From: a virus | Virus record (IMG/VR): IMGVR_UViG_3300032286_000547 | Span: 32,001 to 96,000 of that record | DNA: 64,000 nucleotides | Reading direction: 5' to 3' (one strand) | In this document: positions 27,660 to 30,260 of the stretch, piece after piece | Layout of the letters: each line of letters starts with the position of its first letter | Numbering within the stretch: the stretch's first letter is position 1 | Made by a program: the position numbers and the translations under genes | The notes under the pieces: generated by a model | Told to the model about the DNA's origin: nothing | What the model saw: only the letters and a program-made list of their open reading frames with translations | The model's database searches: none

Positions 27660-28442
27660 ATGGCAATACCTAGTAGACAAATAGGATGGAGTGGAAGAGC
27701 TAACTTACTTTGGCAGATATCTAAACAATTAGAATATCTAACATGTGTAGCAGCTGGTGGATGTACAACTACTACATCTACTACCACTATTGCTCCTACC
27801 ACCACCACAACAACTACAATTTGTGTAGACTTTATTAATAGTATTGTTATTTCTGGTGGTTCATACACTGCTGCTAATGGAACTTATACAAGAGATACTC
27901 CTTCAGGATCTTTTACATTAACAGGTGGAGGTGGTGCTATATTCTTTGGTGGAGATGCTTGGTATATTTTTAATGCTACAATTGGAAATGTTGCAATAAA
28001 TACATCTACACTAGGAACTGGAACATGGGAACCTTTTGCTCCTGGAAATTCATCAGGAATTACTGCAGAGTATTTTTATTATACTTGTCCAACCACTACA
28101 ACCACAACTAGTAGTAGTTCTTCAACAACTTCTACTACTAGCACTACTACAACTGTAGCTCCAACTACTACTACAACAACTACAGTTATATATTCATTTA
28201 ATGTTACGCAATGTTGTGGAGGAACTGGTATTACAGTATATTCAGCTTCACCATCAATAACAGTAGGTGCATATTTATATACAAACTCAGGACTAACTGT
28301 TCCGTTTGTTAATGAACAAGGTGACGGTGCTCCTAACAGAATTGGTTTTGAGAATACTTGTGATGTTTCTTTTAGTGACGCATTTTTTACATATAATACA
28401 GGATACGTTTATACCATTAATGGTGGCGGTGGTTGCGACTAA
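27660..28442 (+). CDS. Thr-rich mucin-like virion protein (anchor type A)
   Basis: Same N-terminus as 26636, with two poly-Thr/Ser linkers and a Cys-containing C-terminal domain. Confidence 0.55.
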   Translation: MAIPSRQIGWSGRANLLWQISKQLEYLTCVAAGGCTTTTSTTTIAPTTTTTTTICVDFINSIVISGGSYTAANGTYTRDTPSGSFTLTGGGGAIFFGGDAWYIFNATIGNVAINTSTLGTGTWEPFAPGNSSGITAEYFYYTCPTTTTTTSSSSSTTSTTSTTTTVAPTTTTTTTVIYSFNVTQCCGGTGITVYSASPSITVGAYLYTNSGLTVPFVNEQGDGAPNRIGFENTCDVSFSDAFFTYNTGYVYTINGGGGCD

Positions 28443-28484
28443 TAACAAACAAAAAATAAATAATTATATTAAACCAACTACATT

Positions 28485-29501
28485 ATGAAAGATTTAAAAT
28501 TTGTACAAGCTTGCCCAAGCGATATTTATTATACATGGCAAGTGAACCTTTGGATGGAAAGCCTAAAAGAAATAGGACACTCTGACAAAGCAATCAATCT
28601 TATATTCACTCCTAAAGGAAGAGAGAATAGAGACAAATGGAAACAAATAGAAGACCTATATCCAGAAGCTGAGTTTCATTACTACGAGGATGAGGATGAT
28701 TTAAATCGATTAATTGGAATCTATATTCCTGTACTTAGACCATATGTTCTTTGGAAACATTTCAAGAAGCATCCAGAGCTAAGTGATAAAGCAATCTTCT
28801 ATTGTGACTCTGACATTCTATTCATGAAAGATTTCAATGTAGATCAGTTCTTAGAAGATGAAGTGTGTTACTTATCAGATACAAATAGCTACATCAATGC
28901 TAAATATTTTGATAGTAAGGTGAATCAAGTGTTACCAGAGAAACTGGAAGAATATAAAGGTAGAGACATCCTTGCAGAGATTGCAAGTGTTGTAGGAATA
29001 AGCAGAGAAATAGCTGAGGCTAACAATGATCATTCAGGAGGAGCACAATATCTATTAAAGAATGTAGATGGTGACTTCTGGAGTAAGGTGATGAATGATT
29101 GTATTCTTATTAGAACCTATTTACAAACAGTGAATAGAGAATTCTTTAAAGATGAAAATGCTGGATACCAAAGTTGGTGTGCTGATATGTGGGCTGTTCT
29201 TTGGAACCTATGGTTTAGAAACCAAGAAACAAAGGTGGTACCTGAAATGGCATTTGCATGGGCTACAGATCCTATATCAAAGCTTGATACACATACAATC
29301 TTTCATAATGCAGGAATAGTTTCTGAAACAGGAAATGGTTACCCAGCCTTTTACAAAGGCAAATATCACATGGGTACTGATCCAACAAAAGATCCTAACC
29401 TAGATATGATTCTTAATGACGAACAATCAAAAAAATATTGTACTTGGTTCTATGCAACTAAACTGAATGAAATTAAAAACAAATATAACCTAAACTATTA
29501 A
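28485..29501 (+). CDS. GT-A glycosyltransferase resembling plant peptidyl O-glycosyltransferases (HPAT/GT95, SERGT/GT96)
   Basis: The motif series YYTWQ, YIPVLRP, YCDSD (DxD) and WCADMWA parallels the YxxWQ, YxxxN[RK]P, DxD and WxxEMY motifs recalled for these families. Confidence 0.6.
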   Translation: MKDLKFVQACPSDIYYTWQVNLWMESLKEIGHSDKAINLIFTPKGRENRDKWKQIEDLYPEAEFHYYEDEDDLNRLIGIYIPVLRPYVLWKHFKKHPELSDKAIFYCDSDILFMKDFNVDQFLEDEVCYLSDTNSYINAKYFDSKVNQVLPEKLEEYKGRDILAEIASVVGISREIAEANNDHSGGAQYLLKNVDGDFWSKVMNDCILIRTYLQTVNREFFKDENAGYQSWCADMWAVLWNLWFRNQETKVVPEMAFAWATDPISKLDTHTIFHNAGIVSETGNGYPAFYKGKYHMGTDPTKDPNLDMILNDEQSKKYCTWFYATKLNEIKNKYNLNY

Positions 29502-29517
29502 CCATAAATTTTAAACA

Positions 29518-29781
29518 ATGGGAAGCATTAATACAAGACCTTTAAAGGCTTATGTTAGATTCGATGGATCTGGCAGAATAGTTGCAGGAAGTTTAGTTCT
29601 GAGAAAGAACAAACCTAAAGTTGGTAAATGGAAAGAGATTCCAGCATATGAGTGCTGTAATCCTACAACCACTACTACCACTACAGCTGCACCAACAACA
29701 ACAACAAGTACAACTGTAGCTCCAACTACCACAACCACAACAACTGCGAGAGCAACAACAACAACTACAACAACAAGATAA
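29518..29781 (+). CDS. Small Thr-rich protein (anchor type B plus poly-Thr tail)
   Basis: LKAYVRFDGSGRIV...ECC followed by a ~38-residue Thr-dominated tail. Confidence 0.65.
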   Translation: MGSINTRPLKAYVRFDGSGRIVAGSLVLRKNKPKVGKWKEIPAYECCNPTTTTTTTAAPTTTTSTTVAPTTTTTTTARATTTTTTTR

Positions 29782-29783
29782 TC

Positions 29784-30260
29784 ATGGCTAGAAGTAATAA
29801 CAATAATAAGCTTAAAGCTTTTGTACGTTTTGATGGTTCAGGACGTATTGTACCAAGTAGTTTAATTGTACAAGCATTTAAACCGAAGGTAGGTAACTAT
29901 CAAGAAATAGATGCTAAAGAGTGTTGTAATTACACAACAACTACAACAACAACTTTAGCACCAACAACAACCACTAGTACTACGGTAGCCCCTACTACAA
30001 CTACAACTACTACTGTAGCTTTAATTCCACTTACTTTTACAGTTTGTTGTGGAGAAGCTGAAGAAACTTTATATGCAACATCAAGTCCAGTAGTGCCTGG
30101 TGTTTATTTATATGAAAACGCGGCTGGTACAATTCCTGCTGTTTTAAGCGGAAATGTTGTGATCGGTGAAATCGATTGTCCTTTTGAAGAAAATATAGGA
30201 ATATCTACAAATGAATCTGGATTAGTTTTGAGTATTACAAACCCTATTAACTGTGCTTAA
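29784..30260 (+). CDS. Thr-rich protein (anchor type B, poly-Thr linker, C-terminal domain)
   Basis: Paralog of 29518. Its C-terminal CCG...LY.....G.YLY domain is similar to that of 27660. Confidence 0.65.
   Translation: MARSNNNNKLKAFVRFDGSGRIVPSSLIVQAFKPKVGNYQEIDAKECCNYTTTTTTTLAPTTTTSTTVAPTTTTTTTVALIPLTFTVCCGEAEETLYATSSPVVPGVYLYENAAGTIPAVLSGNVVIGEIDCPFEENIGISTNESGLVLSITNPINCA

What the first reader, a model, noticed from the sequence alone, without database searches (positions are those of the whole stretch)
27660..30260. Plant HPAT/SERGT-like glycosyltransferase embedded among three poly-threonine protein genes
The 338-aa gene at 28485 carries YYTWQ, YIPVLRP, CDSD and WCADMWA in the same order and spacing that I recall for plant/algal peptidyl O-glycosyltransferases (GT95/GT96). 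It is co-oriented with and directly flanked by genes containing TTTTTTTxAPTTTTSTTVAP tracts. This enzyme-beside-substrate arrangement suggests a mucin-type Thr O-glycosylation unit, which is not a standard phage feature.
Basis: partly seen in the sequence, partly recalled or inferred. Interest (0 to 1): 0.88.

Follow-up and report, generated by a model that had tools for sequence, protein, structure and literature searches.

The report
Phage sugar-transferase beside poly-threonine stalk proteins
A complete 110-kb phage, probably of a freshwater Bacteroidota host, encodes an unnamed sugar-adding enzyme wedged between small proteins with poly-threonine stalks; the same enzyme family sits next to poly-threonine tags in unrelated phages and inside peptide-antibiotic gene clusters, so it very probably sugar-coats the phage's own proteins, though no experiment has shown this.

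Summary
The 338-aa gene at 28485-29501 carries the four quoted motifs, and the only poly-Thr tracts in the 64-kb window lie in the three co-oriented genes that flank it.

The protein folds confidently (pLDDT 97) as a soluble GT-A glycosyltransferase with an invariant DxD and His. Its closest solved structures are retaining GT8/GT24/GT6 enzymes such as glycogenin, LgtC and GlyE. It belongs to unannotated PHROG 4417 and matches no Pfam family.

Enzyme-beside-substrate is well supported.
- The GT has poly-Thr genes beside it in 79 of 80 related viral contigs.
- In all 10 distant phages examined (about 30% identity; Enterococcus, Lactobacillus, Lactococcus, Staphylococcus-type, Chryseobacterium), the gene just upstream of the GT ends in or contains a poly-Thr tract. 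It is often the capsid or tail-tube gene.
- Fused long forms in Bacteroidota chromosomes lack poly-Thr neighbours, but 37 of 40 lie in lanthipeptide-type clusters. That is a second peptide-modifying context.

Kinship to plant HPAT (GT95) is only hinted, by language-model neighbours and two marginal HMM hits. The HPAT model does not hit this protein.

The closest known system is mycobacteriophage virion glycosylation. This scan has already noted the same family on other DNA many times. I rate it a new variant of a known kind, untested by experiment.

The parts
28485..29501 (+). 338-aa soluble GT-A glycosyltransferase (PHROG 4417). DxD is D108-S-D110; H274 and K291 are invariant. No signal peptide or membrane segment.
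27660..28442 (+). 260-aa modular protein, a candidate acceptor. It has N-terminal anchor A (residues 1-30), a poly-Thr tract, a middle domain, a long Thr/Ser tract and a Cys-rich tip.
27765..27818 (+). First poly-Thr tract of the 260-aa protein.
28092..28184 (+). Second poly-Thr/Ser tract of the 260-aa protein.
29518..29781 (+). 87-aa mini-protein: a roughly 48-aa anchor B followed only by four Thr7 tracts ('anchor plus brush'). Candidate acceptor.
29784..30260 (+). 158-aa protein: anchor B, three Thr tracts and a Cys-rich tip related to the tip of the 260-aa protein. Candidate acceptor.
26636..27649 (+). 337-aa paralog with the same anchor A (24/30 identical) but no poly-Thr tract. It belongs to the same mix-and-match cassette.
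30980..31549 (+). 189-aa protein with a third conserved N-terminal anchor and a variable tip, and no poly-Thr. It marks the end of the variable cassette.
21582..24548 (-). 988-aa protein with three glycosyltransferase modules: an N-terminal DSD-containing GT-A-like region, then GT1/GT4 and GT9 domains. Candidate glycan-extending enzyme (inferred).
34789..36771 (-). Three further sugar-tailoring genes: Methyltransf_24-like (34789-35349), GT2 (35312-36001) and GT11 fucosyltransferase-like (35998-36771). They may extend the glycan; any link to this system is inferred only.

Best explanation
The 338-aa protein is a cytoplasmic, metal-dependent GT-A glycosyltransferase. I propose that it transfers a sugar from a nucleotide-sugar onto threonine hydroxyls in poly-Thr tracts of the phage's own late proteins, before assembly and lysis.

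In this phage the acceptors are not tails on capsid or tube proteins. They are internal stalks and terminal brushes, built of T7-[AV]AP repeats, in small modular proteins of the form conserved N-terminal anchor, Thr stalk, hypervariable tip. About eight further structural proteins elsewhere in the genome carry similar tracts. Other phage glycosyltransferases (the 988-aa three-module enzyme, GT2, GT11 and a methyltransferase) may extend the first sugar. The result would be mucin-like, extended, protease-resistant stalks or a sugar brush on virion appendages.

What each step rests on:
- Predicted or shown from sequence: the fold, the DxD/His motifs, the absence of a signal peptide or membrane segment, and the conserved adjacency to poly-Thr genes.
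- Inferred: the acceptor, the donor sugar, whether this enzyme initiates or extends the glycan, that the acceptors are virion parts, and the biological role.
For: 2. Motifs. D108, D110 and H274 are invariant in 78 diverse homologs.
3. Fusions. Family members are fused to GT2, GT6, sugar-binding DXD and methyltransferase domains.
4. Local context. Poly-Thr runs occur in the window only in the three flanking genes.
5. Close relatives. 79/80 related viral contigs keep poly-Thr ORFs beside the GT, with neighbour rates of about 69% against a 1% background.
6. Distant phages. In 10 of 10 homolog-bearing phages of other host phyla, the gene directly upstream ends in or contains poly-Thr. Examples are the phiFL1A major tail protein, the 4995_1 major capsid protein, the 1706 major structural protein, and Semele, SAC12B, R9.1, SscS-F1, TPWB06, nattely and Chryseobacterium MA9V-3.
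7. Prokaryote assemblies. Stand-alone forms have poly-Thr within 1.5 kb in 30/40 loci against 2/40 for fused forms (Fisher p = 6e-11, not corrected for relatedness).
8. Second context. The fused forms sit in lanthipeptide-type clusters (LanB, LanC-like, C39-ABC exporter) in 37/40 loci, so the family recurs next to Ser/Thr-rich ribosomal peptides.
9. Precedent. Phage-encoded virion glycosylation at the C-termini of capsid and tail-tube subunits is established for mycobacteriophages (Freeman et al. 2023, as summarised in PMC12619734).
Against: - No biochemical or mass-spectrometric evidence exists for any member that I could find.
- A shared fold does not give the acceptor. LgtC and WbbM act on lipo- or polysaccharides.
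- The comparative counts are not phylogenetically independent.
- 10 of 40 stand-alone genomic loci, and one related viral contig (L016), show no poly-Thr nearby.
- The three flanking proteins are not shown to be virion components. They lie just after the lysis genes, have no PHROG or Pfam match, and a fold attempt on the anchor-A paralog failed (pLDDT 49).
- This phage's major head protein has no poly-Thr tail, unlike the Firmicutes phages.
- Poly-Thr/Pro linkers also occur in proteins that are not glycosylated by a dedicated enzyme.
Confidence: 0.68

Rival explanations
1. The enzyme does modify the poly-Thr glycoproteins, but as an extending transferase. It would add a second or later sugar to a glycan started by another phage or host enzyme.
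For: The closest solved folds include GlyE, AgtA and UGGT, which extend protein-bound glycans. The genome encodes at least four more GT modules that could initiate.
Against: In small Firmicutes phages (36-44 kb: phiFL1A, 4995_1, R9.1) this is the only GT annotated or seen in the structural region next to the poly-Thr tail. That fits an initiating enzyme better. Whole genomes of those phages were not scanned for other GTs.
Confidence: 0.12
2. The enzyme acts on a non-protein acceptor, such as host envelope polysaccharide, teichoic acid or LPS, or a phage-made polysaccharide. The poly-Thr tracts would be unmodified flexible linkers whose adjacency reflects shared module history.
For: LgtC, WbbM and other GT8-type structural neighbours act on glycolipids or polysaccharides. 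Phage GTs that alter host surfaces are known (review cited).
Against: The association with poly-Thr is repeated in unrelated phage lineages and host phyla, at different structural genes (capsid, tube, fibre-like). The chromosomal relatives lie in peptide (RiPP) clusters, not polysaccharide clusters. The phage protein has no membrane anchor.
Confidence: 0.1
3. The enzyme glycosylates modified bases in phage DNA, as a hypermodification that protects against restriction.
For: Many phage GTs do this, including some GT-A and GT8-like ones (bioRxiv 10.1101/2023.12.21.572611). This phage carries several GTs, three of them next to its replication genes.
Against: The described DNA GTs cluster with C5-methyltransferase, 5mYOX or thymidylate-synthase-like genes. 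None was seen among the ORFs scanned here, although the scan was not exhaustive. This GT lies among structural-type genes in every lineage examined, never in replication modules.
Confidence: 0.05

Closest known systems
Mycobacteriophage virion glycosylation (Che8, Corndog, Myrna; Freeman et al. 2023, Cell Host Microbe; the paper is not held here and is known through citing papers)
   Same: Phage-encoded glycosyltransferases decorate the phage's own structural proteins in the host cytoplasm. In distant members of the present GT family the tags are likewise C-terminal tails on capsid and tail-tube subunits.
   Different: The enzyme family differs: it is unannotated PHROG 4417, and the mycobacteriophage enzymes were not compared here. 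The tag is a poly-Thr homopolymer. The host phyla differ (Bacteroidota, Bacillota). In this phage the tracts are internal stalks or brushes on small modular proteins, and the major head protein is untagged. No experimental evidence exists.
Retaining GT8-type GT-A enzymes: glycogenin, LgtC, and GlyE/GlyD of the serine-rich-repeat glycoprotein pathway
   Different: No sequence-level similarity: no Pfam Glyco_transf_8 hit, and no PDB hit even with a family profile. Identity in the structural alignments is about 10%.
Plant and algal hydroxyproline O-arabinosyltransferases (HPAT, Pfam PF23452, CAZy GT95) and peptidyl-serine galactosyltransferase SGT1 (GT96)
   Same: These enzymes also put the first sugar directly on hydroxy-amino acids in repetitive, extended peptide tracts, which is the proposed working mode here. 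Language-model neighbours of the phage protein are enriched in HPAT-bearing clusters (21/30 named hits). Two of 78 family members give marginal HPAT hits.
   Different: The HPAT model does not match this protein. The phage enzyme is soluble, whereas the plant enzymes are Golgi membrane proteins (own knowledge). The acceptor would be Thr, not Hyp or Ser. GT96 could not be compared with the tools at hand.
Chlorovirus PBCV-1 capsid glycosylation enzymes (e.g. A64R)
   Different: PBCV-1 glycans are N-linked on the major capsid protein of a eukaryotic virus (own knowledge). The structural match is much weaker than to GT8 enzymes.
Peptide-glycosylating tailoring enzymes of RiPP clusters (glycocins, glycosylated lanthipeptides)
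   Same: Fused homologs of this GT domain lie beside LanB, LanC-like and C39-ABC exporter genes in 37/40 Bacteroidota loci.
   Different: The known glycocin transferases belong to other families (own knowledge, not tested here). The products of these Bacteroidota clusters are uncharacterised as far as I could see.

Membership tests
GT-A fold nucleotide-sugar glycosyltransferases | Single Rossmann-like alpha/beta/alpha domain matching solved GT-A enzymes | tested here: met
GT-A fold nucleotide-sugar glycosyltransferases | DxD metal/nucleotide-binding motif after a beta-strand, plus a downstream His ligand | tested here: met
   D108 and D110 (CDSD) and H274 are invariant in 78 homologs at 30-88% identity. 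Their role as metal ligands is inferred from position and was not superposed residue by residue.
PHROG 4417 (unknown function) | Full-length match to the family profile | tested here: met
   E 5.2e-55, residues 5-321 against profile positions 2-287 of 293.
Pfam HPAT PF23452 / CAZy GT95 | Match to the family HMM above the gathering score (23.9 bits) | tested here: not met
   No hit for this protein at E <= 1. Only 2/78 family members give hits, best E 0.013. The genome-level searches found nothing, but the controls did not ring either, so they add little.
Pfam HPAT PF23452 / CAZy GT95 | Remote (superfamily-level) homology by profile-profile or structure comparison | tested here: inconclusive
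   No HPAT sequences or structures could be obtained for hhalign or fold comparison. The only positive sign is the language-model neighbour list: 21 of 30 named clusters carry HPAT, with scores 0.96-0.97.
Pfam HPAT PF23452 / CAZy GT95 | Type II membrane anchor and secretory-pathway location (own knowledge of the plant enzymes) | tested here: not met
   There is no hydrophobic N-terminal segment. Residue 4 onward forms the first beta-strand of the globular fold.
CAZy GT96 (peptidyl-serine alpha-galactosyltransferase SGT1) | Sequence or structural similarity to SGT1 | not testable with these tools
   No profile, sequence or structure of GT96 was available in the libraries searched.
CAZy GT8 (Pfam Glyco_transf_8) | Match to the family HMM | tested here: not met
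   No Pfam hit at E <= 0.1. A family profile finds no PDB sequence. Only the fold is shared.
Phage virion glycosylation systems (mycobacteriophage type) | Phage-encoded GT plus Ser/Thr-bearing acceptor tails on major capsid and tail-tube subunits | tested here: inconclusive
   The GT is present. In distant homolog-bearing phages the capsid and tube proteins carry poly-Thr tails. In this genome the major head protein has none, and the tracts sit in other structural or fibre-like proteins.
Phage virion glycosylation systems (mycobacteriophage type) | Glycans demonstrated on virion proteins | not testable with these tools
   This needs mass spectrometry or glycan staining of particles.

The most novel reading that the evidence does not exclude
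PHROG 4417 is a large, undescribed family of peptide/protein O-glycosyltransferases that reads poly-threonine as its acceptor tag. It is used in two ways. Phages of at least Bacteroidota and Bacillota use it to build mucin-like sugar coats, stalks and brushes on virion proteins. Bacteroidota use it, fused to a second transferase, to glycosylate lanthipeptide-type natural products. It may share ancestry with the plant extensin-glycosylating HPAT enzymes. In this phage lineage it would produce a set of swappable 'anchor, glyco-stalk, tip' appendages and tip-less 'glyco-brush' mini-proteins.
Probability: 0.5. Interest if true: 0.8.

Novelty: new variant of a known kind. Interest (0 to 1): 0.68.

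Why it matters
If true, protein glycosylation of phage particles is not a mycobacteriophage peculiarity. It would be widespread: 778 sequence clusters of this enzyme, including phages of Enterococcus, Staphylococcus-type hosts, lactic acid bacteria and aquatic Bacteroidota.

- Phage therapy: glycan shields affect antibody recognition.
- Dairy and fermentation phages.
- Particle behaviour in water and mucus.
- A compact tool: a short genetically encodable tag (Thr7) plus one small soluble enzyme would be a simple tag-directed glycosylation system.
- Natural products: the lanthipeptide-cluster relatives point to an unexplored class of glycosylated RiPPs in Bacteroidota.

Tried and rejected
- HPAT kinship. 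The Pfam scan of the protein and of 78 homologs gave only two marginal HPAT hits. Genome-level searches with PF23452 covered the phage genome, 5 phage records, 5 bacterial genomes and 301 Bacteroidota genomes. A search with PF23741 (DUF7164) covered the phage genome. All found nothing, but the control genomes did not ring either, so they do not show absence. I could not obtain any HPAT or SGT1 sequence for a profile-profile comparison.
- Sequence search of the PDB with the protein and with a family profile gave no meaningful hit.
- The poly-Thr proteins (158 aa and 260 aa) have no match in 50,697 phage records by tblastn. Their tip domains have no relatives even in the 80 related contigs, so no alignment could be built for folding.
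- AF2 of the anchor-A paralog (26636-27649, 14-sequence alignment) gave pLDDT 49 and was not used for fold search.
- hhalign of the family against the 988-aa multi-GT gave only a 61-column low-probability match around the DxD (6.9%). The two are not the same family.
- The promoter/terminator scan of 24.5-32.2 kb was no better than shuffles.
- Ten literature searches found no paper describing this family or poly-Thr tags on phage proteins. The Freeman et al. 2023 paper itself is not held.
- I considered whether the poly-Thr frame is a wrong-frame artefact of a DNA repeat and rejected it. The codons are mixed, the frames are continuous with conserved N-terminal domains under purifying selection, and the opposite-strand poly-Val ORFs are short overlaps.
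Full report
**What is there**

The window is bases 32001-96000 of a complete 110,147-bp viral record with direct terminal repeats. It is a tailed phage. Its genes include rIIA/rIIB, a UvsX-like recombinase, DNA polymerase, primase and helicases on the minus strand. A collagen-like tail fibre, an M15 endolysin and an XhlA-type holin lie on the plus strand. Terminase, portal and major head protein lie outside the window.

The closest relatives of the gene of interest in genome assemblies are contigs binned with Cytophagales (67% identity) and Sediminibacterium (60%, on a 112-kb contig). 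This points to a Bacteroidota host.

The finding spans four tightly packed plus-strand genes:
- 27660-28442 (260 aa)
- 28485-29501 (338 aa)
- 29518-29781 (87 aa)
- 29784-30260 (158 aa)

A six-frame scan finds poly-Thr runs in the window only in the three flanking genes.

**The enzyme**

The 338-aa protein has no Pfam match but matches PHROG 4417, of unknown function, at E 5e-55.

The family is large:
- 2713 proteins at E <= 1e-5 in the 90% clustered collection.
- 778 clusters at 50% identity.
- 77 sequenced phage isolates, mostly of Lactobacillus, Enterococcus, Staphylococcus-type and Lactococcus hosts, plus one Chryseobacterium phage.

In a 78-sequence alignment, Y80, D108, D110, Y136, F257, H274 and K291 are invariant. 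AlphaFold2 gives a confident single-domain model (pLDDT 97).

Some homologs are fused to GT2, GT6, a DXD sugar-binding region or methyltransferases. There is no signal peptide or membrane segment, so the enzyme should work in the cytoplasm.

**The neighbours**

The three poly-Thr genes are modular.
- The 260-aa protein shares its first 30 residues (24/30 identical) with the upstream 337-aa protein, which has no poly-Thr.
- The 87- and 158-aa proteins share a roughly 48-aa N-terminal domain (63% identity).
- The tips of the 260- and 158-aa proteins are weakly related Cys-rich domains.

Across 80 related viral contigs I found 47 ORFs with the first anchor and 107 with the second. Behind the anchor they carry nothing but Thr7-[AV]AP repeats (58-91 aa mini-proteins), or repeats plus an unrelated tip, or a tip alone. 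The tips of this genome have no relatives in the other contigs, so this is a hypervariable mix-and-match cassette.

The second anchor is under purifying selection (pN/pS about 0.25 over 89 distinct sequences). The Thr codons are mixed, so these are genes and not repeat artefacts.

The genome as a whole has 11 ORFs with poly-Thr/Ser runs, all on the plus strand. Eight lie outside the window, at genome positions 2.3-20.8 kb, next to ORFs with tail-fibre and virion-structural PHROG hits, and they include a 2030-aa protein. The major head protein has no such tract.

**Is the adjacency meaningful?**

Within the phage's own group (67-95% identity of the GT), 79 of 80 contigs have poly-Thr ORFs near the GT. 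The immediate upstream and downstream neighbours carry them in 54/78 and 53/79 loci, against 10/1078 ORFs further away. These genomes are related, so I looked much further afield.

In all ten phages examined at about 30% identity, the gene directly upstream of the GT ends in or contains a poly-Thr tract:
- the major tail protein of Enterococcus phiFL1A
- the major capsid protein of Enterococcus phage 4995_1
- the major structural protein of Lactococcus 1706
- the putative capsid protein of Lacticaseibacillus R9.1
- small Thr-repeat proteins in Lactobacillus Semele and SAC12B, Staphylococcus-type phage SscS-F1 and Arcanobacterium TPWB06
- an unannotated tract just upstream in Enterococcus nattely
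- long Thr/Ser tracts in two upstream genes, one of them adjacent, in Chryseobacterium MA9V-3

In 80 loci from prokaryote genome assemblies the family splits in two.
- Stand-alone genes (prophages and phage contigs) have poly-Thr within 1.5 kb in 30/40 loci, and ending within 300 nt upstream on the same strand in 26/40.
- Long forms fused to a second GT domain (Chitinophaga, Sphingobacterium, Pedobacter, Mucilaginibacter) have poly-Thr nearby in only 2/40. They lie beside lantibiotic dehydratase, LanC-like and C39-peptidase ABC exporter genes in 37/40.

So the catalytic domain recurs in two contexts that both involve Ser/Thr-rich ribosomally made peptides. This is the strongest computational support available for a peptide-directed transferase. 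The counts are not corrected for shared ancestry.

**How it most likely works**

The enzyme binds a nucleotide-sugar through the DxD/His metal site. It transfers the sugar to Thr hydroxyls of unfolded poly-Thr tracts in newly made phage proteins. The further transferases of this phage may extend the glycan: the 988-aa three-module enzyme on the opposite strand at 21582-24548, and a methyltransferase-like/GT2/GT11 trio at 34789-36771.

By analogy with O-glycosylated Thr/Pro linkers of secreted glycoside hydrolases and with mucins (established knowledge), the modified tracts would be stiff, extended and protease-resistant. They would hold the variable tips away from the particle, or form a hydrated brush in the tip-less mini-proteins.

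None of the chemistry is shown. That these proteins are virion parts is inferred only from their architecture and position.

**Rivals**

- An extending rather than initiating role is possible (0.12).
- A non-protein acceptor, with poly-Thr as a bystander linker (0.10), is hard to reconcile with the repeated cross-phylum association and the RiPP context.
- DNA hypermodification (0.05) is unlikely. The described DNA transferases cluster with base-modifying enzymes. This gene always sits in structural modules, and none of the ORFs scanned here looked like a base-modifying enzyme, although the scan was not exhaustive.

**Comparison with what is known**

Functionally, the nearest system is virion glycosylation in mycobacteriophages (Freeman et al. 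2023; known here through citing papers). The differences are the enzyme family, the homopolymeric Thr tag, the host phyla and, in this phage, the placement of the tracts in modular appendage proteins rather than on the capsid or tube.

As a statement of family membership it fails the direct test. The HPAT model does not hit the protein. Only marginal hits in 2/78 relatives and a language-model neighbour list enriched in HPAT-bearing clusters hint at remote kinship. I could not run a profile-profile or structure comparison with plant enzymes.

**Novelty and earlier notes**

Ten full-text searches found no paper on this family or on poly-Thr tags of phage proteins.

The scan's own notebook shows that the same pairing was noted many times before on other DNA: 63 notes in at least 48 genomes, including Enterococcus and Clostridium phages and large freshwater phages, as well as first-stage notes on this same genome. 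Those notes were leads. All counts reported here are my own.

One is the lanthipeptide-cluster context of the fused forms. The other is the description of this lineage's anchor-stalk-tip cassette, with an untagged head protein.

**Verdict**

Glycosylation of poly-Thr tracts of phage proteins is probable (about 0.7 including the extending variant). The plant-family label is unproven. I rate it a new variant of a known kind.

Noticed in passing
L097-L166 (genome-contig loci, e.g. L097:1403-7827, L099:618-9817, L110:2293-7477): Fused two-domain relatives of the phage GT (480-770 aa; the second domain is GT2/Glyco_transf_7C-like) lie inside lanthipeptide-type clusters in Chitinophaga, Sphingobacterium, Pedobacter and Mucilaginibacter, in 37 of 40 loci. 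The clusters hold LanB N- and C-terminal domains, a LanC-like gene, a C39-peptidase ABC exporter and HlyD. These are candidate glycosylated RiPPs.
   Followed up: partly
outside the window: genome 2310-20782 (loci L171, L172): Eight more plus-strand ORFs carry long Thr/Ser tracts, with up to 14 runs in a 768-aa protein. One is a 2030-aa protein and one a 390-aa protein ending in a Thr-rich tail. Neighbouring ORFs have tail-fibre and virion-structural PHROG hits.
   Followed up: partly
window 21582-24548 (-): A 988-aa protein combines three glycosyltransferase modules: an N-terminal DSD-containing GT-A-like region, then GT1/GT4 and GT9 heptosyltransferase-like domains. A 985-aa protein of Virus NIOZ-UU157 appears among the structural matches of the small GT.
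   Followed up: partly
window 34789-36771 (-): Overlapping genes for a Methyltransf_24-like protein, a GT2 and a GT11 (fucosyltransferase family) lie at the start of the replication-side module, next to PhoH and MazG. Some homologs of the 338-aa GT elsewhere are fused to Methyltransf_24.
   Followed up: no
window 2-10894 and 10905-15914 (+): A giant ORF, 4273 aa in the full genome, is followed by a 1669-aa ORF. The 1669-aa ORF has no PHROG match; the giant ORF was not scanned.
   Followed up: no
window 32078-34046 (+): Four consecutive lysine-rich, highly basic small proteins (92-222 aa) with repeated KKxG-type motifs lie here. The first has no PHROG match and the others were not scanned. They may be internal or DNA-associated proteins.
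   Followed up: no
window 26636-31549 (+) and loci L002-L081: This is a hypervariable cassette. Three short conserved N-terminal anchors (about 30, 48 and 32 aa) are combined with unrelated C-terminal tips in different relatives. The number of Thr7-[AV]AP repeats varies from 1 to 4 between genomes.
   Followed up: partly
window 30280-30693 (+): A DUF5856 protein (PHROG 'starvation-inducible transcriptional regulator', Dps-like) lies directly after the poly-Thr genes.
   Followed up: no
L084:3686-4303 (Lactobacillus phage SAC12B): The annotated holin of this phage ends in TTVEP/TTVAP repeats. It lies upstream of the adjacent Thr-repeat protein that precedes the GT homolog, so tagged proteins may not be limited to virion parts.
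   Followed up: no
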